Source of the DNA: Girardia tigrina
Taxonomy: Eukaryota
Reading direction: 5' to 3'
DNA length: 64,000 nucleotides
Assembly (NCBI GenBank): GCA_001938485.1
Contig: MQRK01202454.1
Span: 69,184-133,183, forward strand
Part shown: in pieces, positions 37,701 to 49,700 of the stretch
Layout: each line of letters starts with the position of its first letter
Position numbering within the stretch: the stretch's first letter is position 1
Position numbers: made by a program

Positions 37701-40700
37701 GTAGTGTTTGCATGTTTAAATGTTGTATGTTGATTTTGGATTGTGCCTCTCCTAATCAGATGGATTATCAATATTTAATTTCTTATAATCTGAAACTAAT
37801 TTATTTAAATTTAGATTTAATATTCAAATATTTAATTTTTATTATTGCAACTTTTAAATAAGTTTATTGATTTTATTTTTGTAAATTTTCAAATAATTAA
37901 AATCAAATTAATGTTTAAAAATGACCATAAAATATTTTATTTCAGCCAACAAAATTTAAATTAAATATTTTTAAATAAAATAATCTTCTCCAGTTAGTTC
38001 AGATTATAATGGGAGATATTGAAAATTGAGTGATGGATCTAAGTGAAAGCGTTACTATTGATCATCATAAAGATGACAAGAAATGTGAATGTAATAAATG
38101 TTCTGTCAAATGTGTGAGTTCTCTTAACAATTATATTTGATGAAAAAATATTTATTCTTCTACATGAACATCATCATGGAAAACCATTTACTTTATGTAT
38201 CACATGGAGGATACTTTTTTAATTAAAAGAAATAATTAAAATATTTTTTATCGAAAACTGAAATAAATGAATAAGGAACCATTAATGTCTTAAACATTTT
38301 TAATAGTTGATCAGTTTCAATGTTATTTCGTTTATTAAAAATTAATGATTACTTAATTATAAAGATAACTCCAATGGTTAAAACTCATCCTGATGATCCA
38401 AGAAAACCAGTGTTACAATGGTATAACATATCCAAAGGTAATCGAGAAGCTGGTGAATTACTAGCTGCTTTCGAATTATTTTTGGTATGAAATATTTAGT
38501 TTATTTTATTCATTAATTATGTATAATTTAATAGTATTCTGAGAAGCAACTTCCTTTTACTCCCCCAAAGAGAGGTAATTTGTACAGCGTTCCAGACGGA
38601 GTTCGACCAATGATGCAAAGAACTGGAATTGAAATTCTATCTTGGGGAGTTCGAAATATGAGTAAATATATGTTATCCAATGTAACATCTCCAAGTATCG
38701 AGTTCGAAATCGGTGGATACGTTATTCAAACTGATATAATCAAGAATACTTCTATTAATCCTAATTTTAACAATCCATTATTGTTCTTGGATGTTTTATT
38801 ACCAAAAGAAGAACTTTATATGCCACCTTTTAATATAAGAGTAAGAGATAATAGACATTTTGGAAGGAAACCATTAGTTGGGATGCATGTTTTAAATTCT
38901 GTCGATGAATACAGAATAAGTGCTATCGTGGATGAGAGTACTTTATTGACAGATTTCCCAGGTATTTTTACTTGCAAATTCAATTTAATTTATTTTTCTA
39001 AGCTCTCAATGATTCGGGAGCATCGGATACACTACGACTGGGTCATATTGACGAAGATACCTTTAGTCTTCATTCCGATGATAAATCGCGCTATGTAATT
39101 GTTTTAATATGTTTTGTTTTATCATTAAAACGTATAGATTCGTAATGAATATAGGTGTTATTCTGGAGATAACTCTGTTTTGTTAGGGAACTCTTTTAAG
39201 TCTGATAAAACGTATCGCGATTGCACTTATCCAGGTACGGATCATCACAAATCAACACTGTTTTGCGATGACATAAATTGTTTAATCGCTGACGAAAAAC
39301 CAAGTTATTCAAATACCTTGGATCATGCTTTTCAGACAGAAAGTCAGTCTAGACCTAGTGCTAAAAGGAAACCTGATAAGGACAAAAACCTTTATTGTGG
39401 GGAACAATGTGTTTCTCATAATCCAAATAATTTTGAATATCATAAGTGGGGACAAAATCAAAATAGTCAGTCGATGCCATACTTGATTAATAAAGGTAAA
39501 TTACTTAGGAAGAATTATTGTTGTTCATGTCGTGGTTGAATAGTTACAGTCGTTATGTTCATTCTCAATTAAATAATTTCCACTGTTCAAATTGTTTTTG
39601 TCAATTCGAAATGAGACTGAATTATTTCGTAAATTTTAATACGTTTGATTTAATTACGCAAAATGATATTAGTTCTCTTGCATTTACAAGTAGTTCTTTT
39701 GCATTTAGACGAAGAATATCTTTTTAGGGCTTGATCTCAGTATGCGTAAATTTCTTATTTAAATAAAATAACATTTTACAGAAGATCGAAGTTACTTTCA
39801 AGCCTAAAAAGATATTTTAGAACGTAGTTTGTGGTATATTAGTTTGAGTGTTATGCATAGCCAAGAGAAATCTATGTCAAATGTGATTGTTGATTACAAG
39901 TTGTAATTAAAAGAAATTAAAATAATATTATTAATAAAAAAAATTTTTTATAAAAACAACCACGTTTTTCAAACATTACCAATGCACTAAAAAGAGGAAA
40001 ATAATTTTTTTTCTAGACATGTGCGAAATTTTATACCTAACCAAAAACGTGGGCGGATTTCTGAATTACTGCTATTAGGGTGAGTCATAAGTTGTGGGGC
40101 ACTTTTTATTAAAAATTAAAATGTTCATAAAACAACGCACAATAAAGATTATGGTTCGAAATAAACTCCATTATGTTCAATACATTGTACCCAACGTTCT
40201 GCAAGTTGTTCTATTCCGCGTCGATACCATCTTTTGTCTTTAGAAGCAAAAAATTCTCGACACCCATTATCGACGTCGTCGATATCGGAAAAGCTCCTTC
40301 CCTTCAAAAAATGTGACATAGCTCGGAAAAGATGAAAATCCGAAGGCGCTNNNNNNNNNNNNNNNNNNNNNNNNNNNNNNNNNNNNNNNNNNNNNNNNNN
40401 NNNNNNNNNNNNNNNNNNNNNNNNNNNNNNNNNNNNNNNNNNNNNNNNNNNNNNNNNNNNNNNNNNNNNNNNNNNNNNNNNNNNNNNNNNNNNNNNNNNN
40501 NNNNNNNNNNNNNNNNNNNNNNNNNNNNNNNNNNNNNNNNNNNNNNNNNNNNNNNNNNNNNNNNNNNNNNNNNNNNNNNNNNNNNNNNNNNNNNNNNNNN
40601 NNNNNNNNNNNNNNNNNNNNNNNNNNNNNNNNNNNNNNNNNNNNNNNNNNNNNNNNNNNNNNNNNNNNNNNNNNNNNNNNNNNNNNNNNNNNNNNNNNNN

Positions 40701-46700: not shown

Positions 46701-49700
46701 TAAAAATTTTCGGAATGCTATCTCATCAAGTATATTATGATAATTAGTATTACTTCTCCAAAGATTGCAGTTCAAGTCTATCGTCTAATTTAATGGGAAA
46801 TTTTTTAATAAACTCACAATATTAAAAGATGTCATGATTTAATCGGTATTTTTAACATTAAATTTTGATTTAAACACAGTCTTAATGAAACTAGAAGTAA
46901 TATTTCTGCACATAGTAAACCTTGTAAAAGGGCCATAAATAGCCATAACTTTAAAATTATATTTACTCAATTTAAAAATTATTTAAGTGATATGGGAAGC
47001 GTTATATATATATATATATATATATATNNNNNNNNNNNNNNNNNNNNNNNNNNNNNNNNNNNNNNNNNNNNNNNNNNNNNNNNNNNNNNNNNNNNNNNNN
47101 NNNNNNNNNNNNNNNNNNNNNNNNNNNNNNNNNNNNNNNNNNNNNNNNNNNNNNNNNNNNNNNNNNNNNNNNNNNNNNNNNNNNNNNNNNNNNNNNNNNN
47201 NNNNNNNNNNNNNNNNNNNNNNNNNNNNNNNNNNNNNNNNNNNNNNNNNNNNNNNNNNNNNNNNNNNNNNNNNNNNNNNNNNNNNNNNNNNNNNNNNNNN
47301 NNNNNNNNNNNNNNNNNNNNNNNNNNNNNNNNNNNNNNNNNNNNNNNNNNNNNNNNNNNNNNNNTTTAATATAACTTTCTTTTTTCGAATGTTACATATT
47401 TAATTATATCAAAATTTTAATTTGTATAATTTTTTATATAACTTTCTTTCAAAAATTTTCCTAACATTTTTAATTCCTAACATCCATGATGCAATAATTA
47501 CATACTCATTGACTGCCGTAAATTTAAAAAATTAAGATCAAAAAATTTCGATCTCAAAATTAACGTTCAAGATGAACCAGGGCCTTTTTAACATATTGAT
47601 TAAGGGGTGTTTTTGCCCCTCCCCCCAGTCCAAGGCAAAAGTACTAGGTTGGGGGGGGGACAATTTTTTTTAAATTAATTTTTAAAACTATTTTTGTGAT
47701 TTTTGATGCTTTTGCATCAACAGAAGATTTAAACTTCGCTGTTATAGCAGAAGACTAAACCACAAATACAAACGTTGGCCTCATGGCAAAAGAAGAATCA
47801 TCTTTCTTTTATCGTCAAGAATCTTTTATCATCACTTCTCACAATACTATGGAATGGTACAAGCACAGAAAGTGAATGTAAAATGATAAGTAGAAAATAG
47901 TAGGGCCTGTTAGGAAGCATTTATGTTTGCACCTGCCGAAGGGAAGTGTAAAACATTATTCTTTTCTTCTTTTAAATCTGAGAACGCTTGATAAAAAAAC
48001 TGTTTGGAATAGGAAAATTCATTATAAAAAACAAGGAAAAATAACTATTTGTATTCGAAATTAAAAGTTACCAAGTTTCGGCACATGACCATTCCAGATT
48101 GTTTGTGCCCCCAGTGAAAATTTCTTAAAAAATGCCCTGAGATGAACTCTTGACAACTTCATTGATGGTTTTTAAATGATTTATCCATGATGCAATAATT
48201 ACATAACCATTGACGGCCGTTAATTTAAAAAAAATTAACTTTTTTTTTAAAAATCAGTTGTTCTGAAGATGACTGCTAATTCATCGAAATTAATAAACTG
48301 GTTGAAACATTTTAATTTTTTTATTTTATTTTATATTTTCTCATTTTCAATAATATATTACCTTTCTGTTTTAATTTACTTGACTTAATGGATATATTAG
48401 CTTTTGGTAAATTAATAATCCCTAAATATTTTATGTTTGACATGTCTTAATTAAATCAATATAAAAAATAAATTTATAATAAATGTTTTTTTAGGAAAAG
48501 TTTTGTATTTGAATTATAATTAATTTCTGTTTCACCAGTAATAAACCACTTCAACCAACCAATCGATATTCATTTTATTGGGAAATATTTATTTTTCTTT
48601 CTTAGAATGAGCATAAGTCAAGTTTAAAGATTTCTGTTCCTTTGGAATTCTGACTATTATAATGTAGTTTCAAAAATATTTTATATAAATAATCTCTCAG
48701 ATTGTCATAGATTTCAGTTGAATTGCATCGCTTAGATTTTGGATATTTTTGAATTTGATGTGAAGGCAAAAATTAAGTTCATTGCATTAAGTGTGAGAAG
48801 TTTCATCTCAAAGATTAGCTTTTGGTTGGCTACCAATTGTCATCTTAATCCTCGTAAAGTACGGAACGATAGAGAAAGCATATTGTTTTCTCAAATGGCT
48901 TTTGATAGTTGACTATGGTTGGTTTGCGAGAATGGAATTGAACGCGCTTTGTGTATATGAGGAGGTAATGAATTTAGTTCGCTGATCAAAATTTAAATAG
49001 TTTTAAAAATTGTTTTGAATTGAAATCAAACTGAAAATTTTAAAAATTAAATGATAATTAAATATTTTAACTTTGAATTTGAAAATATTCTGTATAAAAT
49101 ATTATCTTATAATATTAGAATATTATTTGATATTTTGAAATATTATTTAATATTATTTTTAAAATATTATTTTAGCAAAAAATGAATGGATTAAAACAGA
49201 TAACAGATAGAACAGTATTTTAAAAAATAATCATTTTATTTGAATTTCATTAAAAATTTTTGAGTTAAAAATGAATTCTGATATTGATGTTGCAACCACT
49301 TCTCACAGAGTATTTTGATTAAATTTTATGAAAAATTAAATAAATTTATTTTAATCTAATAATTTATTGGTTAAATGTTATTTAATTTTGATATGTTTCC
49401 GTATAGTGTGCTAGTTTAGTTTATGGTATGAATTAACCTGAGGATGAGATTGTTTTTGTGAAACGCGTCATCTTATTTTATCCTTTTATATAGATTTTAT
49501 TTGGCCATATAAATAATTTTTGTATAGTTTTTTTGAAGATAATGAATTTTATTTAAGTATTTACGTATAATGGAAATATCAAATCATAATTATGGTGCTT
49601 AACAATGTTTTTTAAAATGATTCTTTAGGAATGTATTTCCGATGCGGTAAGTAATTTTTTTGTTTTTTTCAATCTTTTCCTTTGTACTATTTTCACTTGG

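What the first reader, a model, noticed from the sequence alone, without database searches (positions are those of the whole stretch)
39003..49646. Modular ~208-aa exon block at the position of dysferlin exon 40a (calpain-cleavage linker)
Five non-conserved exons (92, 358, 47, 111 and 18 nt) lie between the C2 domain ending at 38961 and the IDWWSK exon. In vertebrate dysferlin, the alternative exon 40a carrying the calpain site that releases mini-dysferlin lies immediately before EEEFIDWWSK. Phases (1-0, 0-1, 1-0, 0-0, 0-0) and a second phase-1 donor at 39234 permit many in-frame combinations. Inference: an independently elaborated, alternatively spliced regulatory or cleavage linker in an invertebrate membrane-repair ferlin.
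[Added by the scan's program, not by the reader: the finding's places include an assembly gap (unread letters, written N; its length is only estimated) at 40351 to 41077, 47028 to 47364. Whether the letters on both sides are continuous or in frame is not known: test that first.]
Basis: partly seen in the sequence, partly recalled or inferred. Interest (0 to 1): 0.7.

Follow-up and report, generated by a model that had tools for sequence, protein, structure and literature searches.

The report
Variable loop exons in flatworm ferlin
This stretch encodes the variable surface loop of a flatworm membrane-repair (ferlin) gene, at the place where vertebrate dysferlin carries its cleavable optional exon; one long extra exon looks real, but alternative splicing is unproven.

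Summary
The window holds most of a DysF-type ferlin gene from an AT-rich spiralian. Two single-exon trees place it as sister to trematodes.

All five proposed exons exist as described: coordinates, AG/GT borders, open frames, phases and the extra donor at 39234. They differ in how far they exceed chance:
- **E2 (358 nt):** clearly more than chance.
- **E1 and E4:** moderate support from position, frame need and length.
- **E3 and E5:** no better than decoys in control introns of the same gene.

None of the five resembles any homologue's linker beyond composition.

Both assembly gaps lie deep in introns inside transposon copies and touch no exon.

The position matches dysferlin exon 40a. Gene models of trematodes, echinoderms and sauropsid myoferlins also differ by clean insertions ending exactly at the start of the IDWWSK exon. 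Linkers of 60-205 residues occur in other invertebrates. A long, variable and possibly optional insert here is therefore a family habit, not an independent invention.

Alternative splicing and calpain cleavage could not be tested, because no transcript or related genome was within reach.

Verdict: a new member of a known kind, of modest interest.

The parts
38535..38961 (+). Exon for the body of the third-last C2 domain (C2E in the seven-C2 naming); ends in phase 1
   Evidence: Pfam C2 hit at E 0.0016, 19 bits, below the 22-bit cut-off. 56-70% identical to named ferlins. Donor CAG|GTATTT.
39003..39094 (+). E1, 92 nt, phase 1 to 0; acidic, Ser-rich (net charge -4). Probable constitutive first loop exon.
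   Evidence: Coordinates and frame. Lies 41 nt after the C2 exon. GC is 0.42 over 39000-39099. A 1-to-0 exon is required by the frame. Against: codon score is no better than null frames (493 of 785 null frames score as high), and E1-like decoys run at 7.65 per 10 kb.
39138..39495 (+). E2, 358 nt, phase 0 to 1. A lineage-specific 119-residue piece with 6 Cys, 5 His and 13 aromatic residues. Second phase-1 donor after 39234. The open frame runs on to 39539.
   Evidence: Longest + strand frame of the interval; 0 of 20,000 shuffles stayed open. 0 E2-like decoys in 41,855 nt of control introns. 43-nt intron after E1, in matching phase. No Met until near its end. No real homologue. No confident fold.
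40066..41302 (-). Mariner-type transposon copy in the intron; contains assembly gap 40351-41077
   Evidence: 69-nt inverted repeats at 40066-40134 and 41234-41302 (pair I4). 40149-40349 on the - strand matches the last 65 residues of Mos1 transposase at E 7.6e-14.
42374..42420 (+). E3, 47 nt, phase 1 to 0. A candidate partner that would restore the frame after E2.
   Evidence: Frame and signals. One of 7 phase 1-to-0 candidates in 38990-42480. Decoy rate is 2.87 per 10 kb. Lies 81 nt before E4. A rival candidate is 41590-41645.
42502..42612 (+). E4, 111 nt, phase 0 to 0. Encodes a polybasic, Phe-rich stretch (11 K/R, 4 aromatic residues, net +6).
   Evidence: Signals. 0 decoys at its acceptor strength. 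Codon score is in the top 30 of 785 null frames. Same size and place as the 38-residue piece that separates the O. felineus and O. viverrini models. Sequence likeness does not exceed composition: 151 of 500 shuffles score as high.
42864..48321 (.). Nest of transposon-like inverted repeats filling the E4-E5 intron. Contains a Tc1-type element at 42944-44683 (transposase on the - strand), an inner element at 44788-47011, and assembly gap 47028-47364.
   Evidence: Inverted-repeat pairs I1, I2, I3, I6, I7, I8 and I13. Pfam DDE_3 at E 5.6e-19 and HTH_Tnp_Tc3_2 at E 3.5e-11.
49629..49646 (+). E5, an 18-nt candidate micro-exon, phase 0 to 0, donor GTAAGT
   Evidence: Signals. One of 2 such candidates with a strong donor in the interval, where about 1.2 are expected by chance. 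No counterpart in the trematode models, which run straight from the basic stretch into the LD... exon.
49802..49915 (+). Conserved exon beginning LDLTLMDEDIDWWSK, phase 0 to 0
   Evidence: tblastn to named ferlins. Translation; the acceptor AG at 49800-49801 was read.

Best explanation
The interval 38962-49801 encodes the variable, surface-exposed insert of a DysF-type ferlin. The insert lies between the body of the third-last C2 domain and the conserved IDWWSK exon. That is upstream of the two C-terminal C2 domains and the membrane anchor.

**Likely core path.** The core path is probably E1 plus E4. It gives an acidic, Ser-rich start followed by a polybasic, Phe-rich stretch just before IDWWSK. 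Its length is 111 residues from the GRKP motif to DWWSK, the same as in three trematode proteins.

**E2.** E2 is most likely a genuine, lineage-specific coding exon. Including it needs a following 1-to-0 exon, and E3 is the best-placed candidate.

**E5.** E5 may be chance.

**Size of the interval.** The 10.8-kb span is mostly transposon insertions, and both assembly gaps sit inside them.

**Function (inferred, not shown).**
- The insert acts as a flexible, protease-accessible tether.
- Its basic-aromatic part can lie on acidic membranes.
- Optional exons would change loop length, charge and cleavability, as exon 40a does in dysferlin.
For: - **Ferlin identity.** Pfam C2, dsrm_Ferlin and Ferlin_C; FerA and FerB. 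Ordered tblastn matches run from 490 to 61134.
- **Placement.** Sister to trematodes in two single-exon trees, with support 92/90 and 93/81.
- **Frame.** The phases show that a 1-to-0 exon is required.
- **E2.** (0 of 20,000 shuffles open; expected 0.07; 0 decoys in 41,855 nt). Its introns of 41 and 43 nt resemble the gene's other short introns.
- **E4.** (0 decoys at its acceptor strength). One search shows a clean 38-residue difference between two Opisthorchis models at the same place. In the same call, 15 of 32 named invertebrate linkers have 6 or more K/R within 12 residues near DWWSK.
- **Lengths.** The E1-only path gives 74 residues and the E1+E4 path 111. Trematode values are 71-83 and 109-113 (arithmetic).
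- **Transposons and gaps.**
- **Surface exposure and cleavage at this site in dysferlin.** PMC11544258 and PMC4230592 (passages read).
Against: - No exon shows sequence similarity to any homologue's linker beyond composition. Shuffles scoring as high as the real exon: E1 497 of 500, E2 490, E3 109, E4 151, E5 12.
- Codon usage of E1-E5 falls below 18 of 19 conserved exons. E1 is indistinguishable from null frames.
- E2 has no homologue among 1.84 billion representatives. Its two hits are inflated by repeats.
- E2's composition (N, S, Y, C, H) is partly what AT-rich DNA gives.
- Its acceptor has the weakest pyrimidine tract of the set (4 of 10).
- Other long unexplained frames exist in this window (31176-31634, 33025-33525).
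- No transcript was seen.
Confidence: 0.55

Rival explanations
1. One reading: all five are real cassette exons used in many combinations. They would form a regulated cleavage (calpain) linker that arose independently in this lineage.
For: 16 in-frame paths exist. Each candidate lies close to a neighbouring exon. Optional pieces at this junction are seen in other ferlin models and in dysferlin (PMC4230592, passages).
Against: E3 and E5 are no better than decoys. Phase compatibility is arithmetic, not evidence of use. Long variable linkers are widespread, so independent elaboration is not needed. No calpain test was possible.
Confidence: 0.15
2. Only a short constitutive path (E1, with or without E4) is used. 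On this view E2 is a relic or chance open frame in the intron, and E3 and E5 are chance.
For: E1-only and E1+E4 lengths match trematode proteins. E2 has no homologue, no confident fold, a weak acceptor and only middling codon usage.
Against: An open frame of 133 codons is expected 0.07 times in the interval. It starts at an acceptor 43 nt after E1 in the right phase and ends near a consensus donor.
Confidence: 0.22
3. The E2 open frame belongs to something other than the ferlin: a decayed mobile element or a separate nested gene.
For: The introns of this gene are full of transposon frames.
Against: No second copy in the window (self-BLAST). No Pfam family. No homologue. No Met before residue 113, so it cannot start a protein. 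Same strand and phase as the ferlin.
Confidence: 0.05

Closest known systems
Dysferlin alternative exon 40a (vertebrates)
   Same: Same place in the protein: a surface insert after the body of the third-last C2 domain and directly before the acidic-IDWWSK exon, upstream of the last two C2 domains and the anchor. Optional and poorly conserved in sequence (52% among mammals; PMC4230592 and PMC11544258, passages).
   Different: Exon 40a is one cassette of 21 residues. Here there are up to five candidate exons and 209 codons. No sequence comparison with 40a was made. Calpain cleavage and optional use are unshown here.
Myoferlin and otoferlin cleavable linker; sauropsid myoferlin isoform models
   Same: Both are enzymatically cleaved to tail-anchored dual-C2 modules (PMC4230592, passages). 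Models of 11 of 13 species differ just before EEEIVDWWSK.
   Different: Those inserts are 3-18 residues. Many are Phe-rich and look like translated polypyrimidine tract, so they may be annotation noise. There is no likeness to E1-E5.
Trematode ferlins (named myoferlin or dysferlin in Opisthorchis, Fasciolopsis, Paragonimus, Schistosoma)
   Same: Nearest kin in the trees. Linker lengths of 71-83 or 109-113 match the E1 and E1+E4 paths. A basic stretch precedes an exon that starts LD.... A 38-residue optional piece sits where E4 sits.
   Different: Nothing corresponds to E2, E3 or E5. Similarity is compositional only.
Echinoderm dysferlin-like proteins (Acanthaster isoform X4, Patiria X3)
   Same: Linkers of 205 and 166 residues. 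A 29-residue basic-aromatic piece is present in one model and absent in the other, ending at the IDWWSK exon border.
   Different: A different phylum with unrelated sequence. The comparison is between species models, not isoforms of one gene.
MARCKS-type polybasic effector segment (recalled, not tested)
   Same: In its second half E4 has 11 Lys/Arg and 4 Phe, with Ser/Thr between them. This is the make-up of segments that bind acidic lipids electrostatically.
   Different: No homology is claimed. Lipid binding, phosphorylation and calmodulin binding are all untested.

Membership tests
Ferlin family | Several C2 domains in series | tested here: met
   Pfam C2 above the cut-off in exons 35588-35890, 52510-53100 and 53130-53807. 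Sub-threshold (19 bits against a 22-bit cut-off) in 38535-38960.
Ferlin family | Ferlin-specific FerA, FerB and dsrm_Ferlin regions, plus a Ferlin_C tail with a single C-terminal membrane span | tested here: met
   FerA 46.2 bits and FerB 77.2 bits. dsrm_Ferlin 114.6 bits and Ferlin_C 31.2 bits. A hydrophobic stretch is read in frame 60916-61182.
DysF-type (dysferlin/myoferlin-like) ferlins | DysF region between FerB and the next C2 domain | tested here: inconclusive
   PF06398 scores 21.4 bits against a 26.8-bit cut-off in 23172-23549. The same stretch aligns at 46-54% identity to DysF-bearing named ferlins.
Exon-40a-type optional cleavage cassette | Lies in the insert directly upstream of the IDWWSK exon | tested here: met
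   E1-E5 lie between 38961 and 49802. The position of 40a comes from PMC4230592 and PMC11544258 (passages). Variants in 11 of 13 species end at EEEIVDWWSK.
Exon-40a-type optional cleavage cassette | Included in some transcripts and skipped in others | not testable with these tools
   No transcript or eukaryotic genome collection was within reach. Only phase compatibility is shown.
Exon-40a-type optional cleavage cassette | Carries a calpain cleavage site | not testable with these tools
   No calpain-site predictor or assay was available. PMC4230592 says the site is set by structure rather than by a motif.
Exon-40a-type optional cleavage cassette | Sequence kinship with exon 40a | not tested
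   No dysferlin sequence containing exon 40a was in hand, and human sequence was not used.
Mariner (Mos1-type) transposon, around gap 40351-41077 | Transposase with the Mos1-type C-terminus, flanked by terminal inverted repeats | tested here: met
   E 7.6e-14 to Mos1 residues 281-345 of 345. Inverted repeats at 40066-40134 and 41234-41302. Pfam found nothing for the 66-residue piece.

The most novel reading that the evidence does not exclude
The junction in front of the IDWWSK exon may be an ancient splice hot spot conserved in position but not in sequence across animals. It would include dysferlin 40a, the echinoderm and trematode basic-aromatic pieces, and this locus. On this reading the flatworm gene carries the most elaborate version known. 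E2+E3 would be a 135-residue Cys/His/aromatic-rich cassette, and E4 an optional membrane-binding polybasic switch. Both would be used in combination to tune cleavage and membrane attachment of the C-terminal dual-C2 module, for instance after wounding.
Probability: 0.15. Interest if true: 0.6.

Novelty: new member of a known kind. Interest (0 to 1): 0.3.

Why it matters
Cleavage at this loop frees the fusion-competent C-terminal module of ferlins, and in dysferlin an optional exon decides whether that happens.

If the flatworm gene really switches several exons here, it would give a tractable invertebrate model. The question it could address is how loop length, charge and cleavability tune membrane repair, possibly in a regenerating animal.

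It would also support the idea that the place of the switch, not its sequence, is what evolution keeps.

As it stands the locus mainly shows two things. A long variable insert at this site is ordinary for invertebrate ferlins. And short candidate exons in AT-rich introns need transcript proof.

Tried and rejected
- **HMMER search of E2.** Searched against 1.84 billion representatives. There were 2 hits. One is a tandem-repeat protein matched in 12 stretches; the other is a bacterial repeat protein at E 1e-3. Both are inflated by repeats, so I rejected them as homologues.
- **ESM Atlas on E2.** Best score 0.79 with low recognition. No lead.
- **AlphaFold2 on E2 alone.** Mean pLDDT 37.3. No fold, which fits disorder or simply the lack of an alignment. 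My idea of a small metal-binding module, prompted by its two close Cys pairs, gained no support.
- **Pfam on E1, E2 and E4.** Nothing.
- **Local alignment of each exon to 27 named linkers, with 500 shuffles.** No exon scored above composition. This withdraws my first impression that E4 and the start of E1 are homologous to trematode segments.
- **tblastn of 7 named ferlins against the window.** One HSP in the interval, at E 7.8, which is chance.
- **Search for the species' own protein or near kin.** Best identities were 70% and 65%, so nothing close was found. Full-length proteins over 2000 residues were outside two of the three searches.
- **Three unnamed hits screened against the window.** They were 51-56% identical, so not the same species. 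I dropped them.
- **Rfam on the whole window.** 0 matches.
- **Pfam on the mariner piece.** Nothing. The PDB sequence search settled it instead.
- **Paper PMC5995151 on myoferlin cleavage.** Not held.
- **Literature searches.** These covered flatworm ferlins, invertebrate ferlin linker splicing and ferlin polybasic segments. They found only a one-line mention of a wound-induced Schmidtea ferlin-like cDNA (PMC2386466, passage), and nothing on this linker.
- **Not attempted.** The joined spliced model was never built, searched or folded; every search was exon by exon.
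Full report
**What the window is.**
- The sequence has 21-47% G+C in 2-kb windows, most of them between 23% and 36%. It carries most of one ferlin gene on the + strand.
- Ordered tblastn matches to named ferlins run from 490 to 61134.
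- Pfam finds C2 domains, dsrm_Ferlin and Ferlin_C, and FerA and FerB. The DysF region is just below the cut-off, at 21.4 against 26.8 bits.
- Maximum-likelihood trees of two single exons, each with 24 named homologues, place the window as sister to the trematode clade. Support is 92/90 and 93/81, below the program's star level.
- The best identity to any database protein is 65-70%. The organism and its near kin are therefore not in the protein sets, at least among proteins of up to 2000 residues.
- I take it for a flatworm outside the trematodes. It is not human.

**The gaps, tested first.**
- Gap 40351-41077 lies between 69-nt inverted repeats at 40066-40134 and 41234-41302.
  - The 201 bases before it encode, on the - strand, the last 65 residues of a Mos1-type mariner transposase (E 7.6e-14, residues 281-345 of 345).
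  - Repeat-to-repeat length with the estimated gap is 1237 nt. From memory this is near the size of a full mariner, so the gap is most simply the middle of that element.
- Gap 47028-47364 lies in a nest of inverted repeats spanning 42864-48321.
  - The nest holds a Tc1-type element (42944-44683, 194-nt ends at 95%; DDE_3 and HTH_Tnp_Tc3_2).
  - It also holds an inner element (44788-47011) that ends in a TA repeat at the gap's edge.
- No candidate exon lies within 856 nt of a gap, so no frame crosses one.
- The exons on both sides follow the order of the homologous proteins.
- Whether a gap hides an exon cannot be told.

**The observation.**
- The IDWWSK exon is 49802-49915.
- The upstream exon ends in phase 1 and the IDWWSK exon starts in phase 0, so a direct junction is out of frame and at least one 1-to-0 exon must lie between them.
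- Phase arithmetic gives 16 in-frame paths, adding 16 to 209 codons.

**Is it more than chance?** I counted look-alike exons in 41,855 nt of eight other introns of the same gene.
- **E2.**
  - No look-alike was found in the control introns.
  - Its frame of 133 codons is the longest of 1786 + strand frames in the interval, where 0.07 that long are expected. None of 20,000 shuffles of the stretch stayed open.
  - The frame starts at an acceptor 43 nt after E1 in matching phase and has a consensus donor 44 nt before its stop.
  - It has no Met before residue 113, so it can only be an internal exon.
- **E4.** It has 5 look-alikes at a loose acceptor threshold and none at its own.
- **E1, E3 and E5.** Look-alikes run at 7.65, 2.87 and 1.19 per 10 kb. 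About 7, 3 and 1 are therefore expected in the 9,727 read bases of the interval. I found 9, 5 and 2.
- **Positional support.** Their only extra support is closeness to a neighbouring exon: 41, 81 and 155 nt. Multiplying the rates by such distances gives rough chances of a few percent each. I chose this measure after seeing the data.
- **Codon usage.** Codon usage was scored against 785 null open frames. E4 ranks in the top 30 of 785 and E2 in the top 53. E1 is not distinguishable (493 of 785 score as high). All five fall below 18 of 19 conserved exons. This is inconclusive, since a disordered loop need not use the codons of C2 domains.

**Homology.**
- E2 has no real relative. Both hits among 1.84 billion representatives are artefacts of repeats. 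The ESM Atlas gave nothing, and a single-sequence AlphaFold2 model has mean pLDDT 37.3.
- I aligned each exon to the linkers of 27 named ferlins and compared with 500 shuffles. No exon scored above composition: shuffles reached the observed score 497, 490, 109, 151 and 12 times for E1 to E5.
- What is shared is form.
  - From the GRKP motif to DWWSK, 32 named invertebrate proteins have 60 to 205 residues, apart from one 28-residue S. japonicum model.
  - Fifteen of the 32 have six or more Lys/Arg within 12 residues near DWWSK.
  - E4 encodes such a stretch, with 11 basic and 4 aromatic residues.
- Lengths also agree. E1 alone would give 74 residues and E1+E4 would give 111. Trematode values are 71-83 and 109-113. 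All five exons together would give 252.

**The junction is variable in other animals too.** Four pairs of closely related named models differ by one clean insertion that ends exactly where the IDWWSK exon begins:

| Pair | Insertion (residues) |
|---|---|
| O. felineus / O. viverrini | 38 |
| Acanthaster / Patiria | 29 |
| S. intercalatum / S. japonicum | 50 |
| P. heterotremus / P. westermani | 5 |

- The 38-residue piece has the size and place of E4.
- Among 13 vertebrate species with two or more named non-human myoferlin models, 11 show variants that differ just before EEEIVDWWSK. Many of these inserts are Phe-rich and look like translated polypyrimidine tract, so some may be annotation noise.

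**Comparison with the known case.**
- PMC4230592 (passages read) places exon 40a between exons 40 and 41, before the last two C2 domains. It reports 52% identity among mammals. [quoted passage not shown]
- PMC11544258 (passages read) describes 40a as a 21-residue insert in C2E between Q1470 and E1471, exposed on the surface.
- PMC12264198 (passages read) agrees that cleavage frees the C2F-C2G part.
I did not check it on dysferlin sequence itself.

**Most likely working.**
- Shown: the anatomy, phases and transposon load.
- Inferred:
  - E1 and E4 form the usual loop.
  - E2 is a lineage-specific exon that needs E3 or 41590-41645 after it.
  - E5 is doubtful.
  - The loop acts as a flexible, accessible tether whose basic-aromatic part can lie on acidic membranes.
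- Optional use and cleavage are open.

**What stayed unchecked.**
- Transcripts.
- RefSeq isoform sets.
- Calpain sites.
- The joined protein.

Noticed in passing
window 31176-31634 (+) and 33025-33525 (-): Two long open frames (152 and 166 residues) lie in the intron between exons 29383-29520 and 35499-35546. Pfam finds no family. Homology to other ferlins does not require them.
   Followed up: partly
window 35499-35546 (+): A small conserved exon (encoding KGAMIVPRLFLVFK...) lies about 40 nt upstream of exon 35588. It matches the PRMFL segment of four named ferlins at weak E-values of 0.17-0.6 when scored alone.
   Followed up: partly
window 55063-57252 (-): The same long open frame (up to 296 residues, containing ...ETRWSTRADAENV...) appears three times in a row, separated by short assembly gaps. 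Pfam found nothing. It could be tandem mobile-element copies or an assembly duplication in the intron before the last exons.
   Followed up: partly
window 51930-52400: A G+C-rich patch with overlapping open frames on both strands (up to 135 residues) lies just upstream of exon 52510. There is no Rfam match.
   Followed up: no
window 4418-6777, 7760-9736, 18281-18667, 24203-25778 (all -): Long frames of transposon type sit in other introns. By eye, from recalled motifs, they include reverse-transcriptase-like YxDD pieces, an integrase-like piece and a second mariner-like N-terminus. The 24-26 kb stretch is the G+C peak of the window (0.468).
   Followed up: no
window 41300-41600 and 41900-42000: G+C-raised patches (0.38-0.44) lie in the E2-E3 intron just right of the mariner copy. 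Open frames of about 50 residues are present, but no exon-like borders were found except the 1-to-0 candidate at 41590-41645.
   Followed up: partly
window 46415-46647 (-): Short frames containing a YADD motif lie inside the inner inverted-repeat element. By eye this looks like a reverse-transcriptase remnant. Pfam found nothing.
   Followed up: partly
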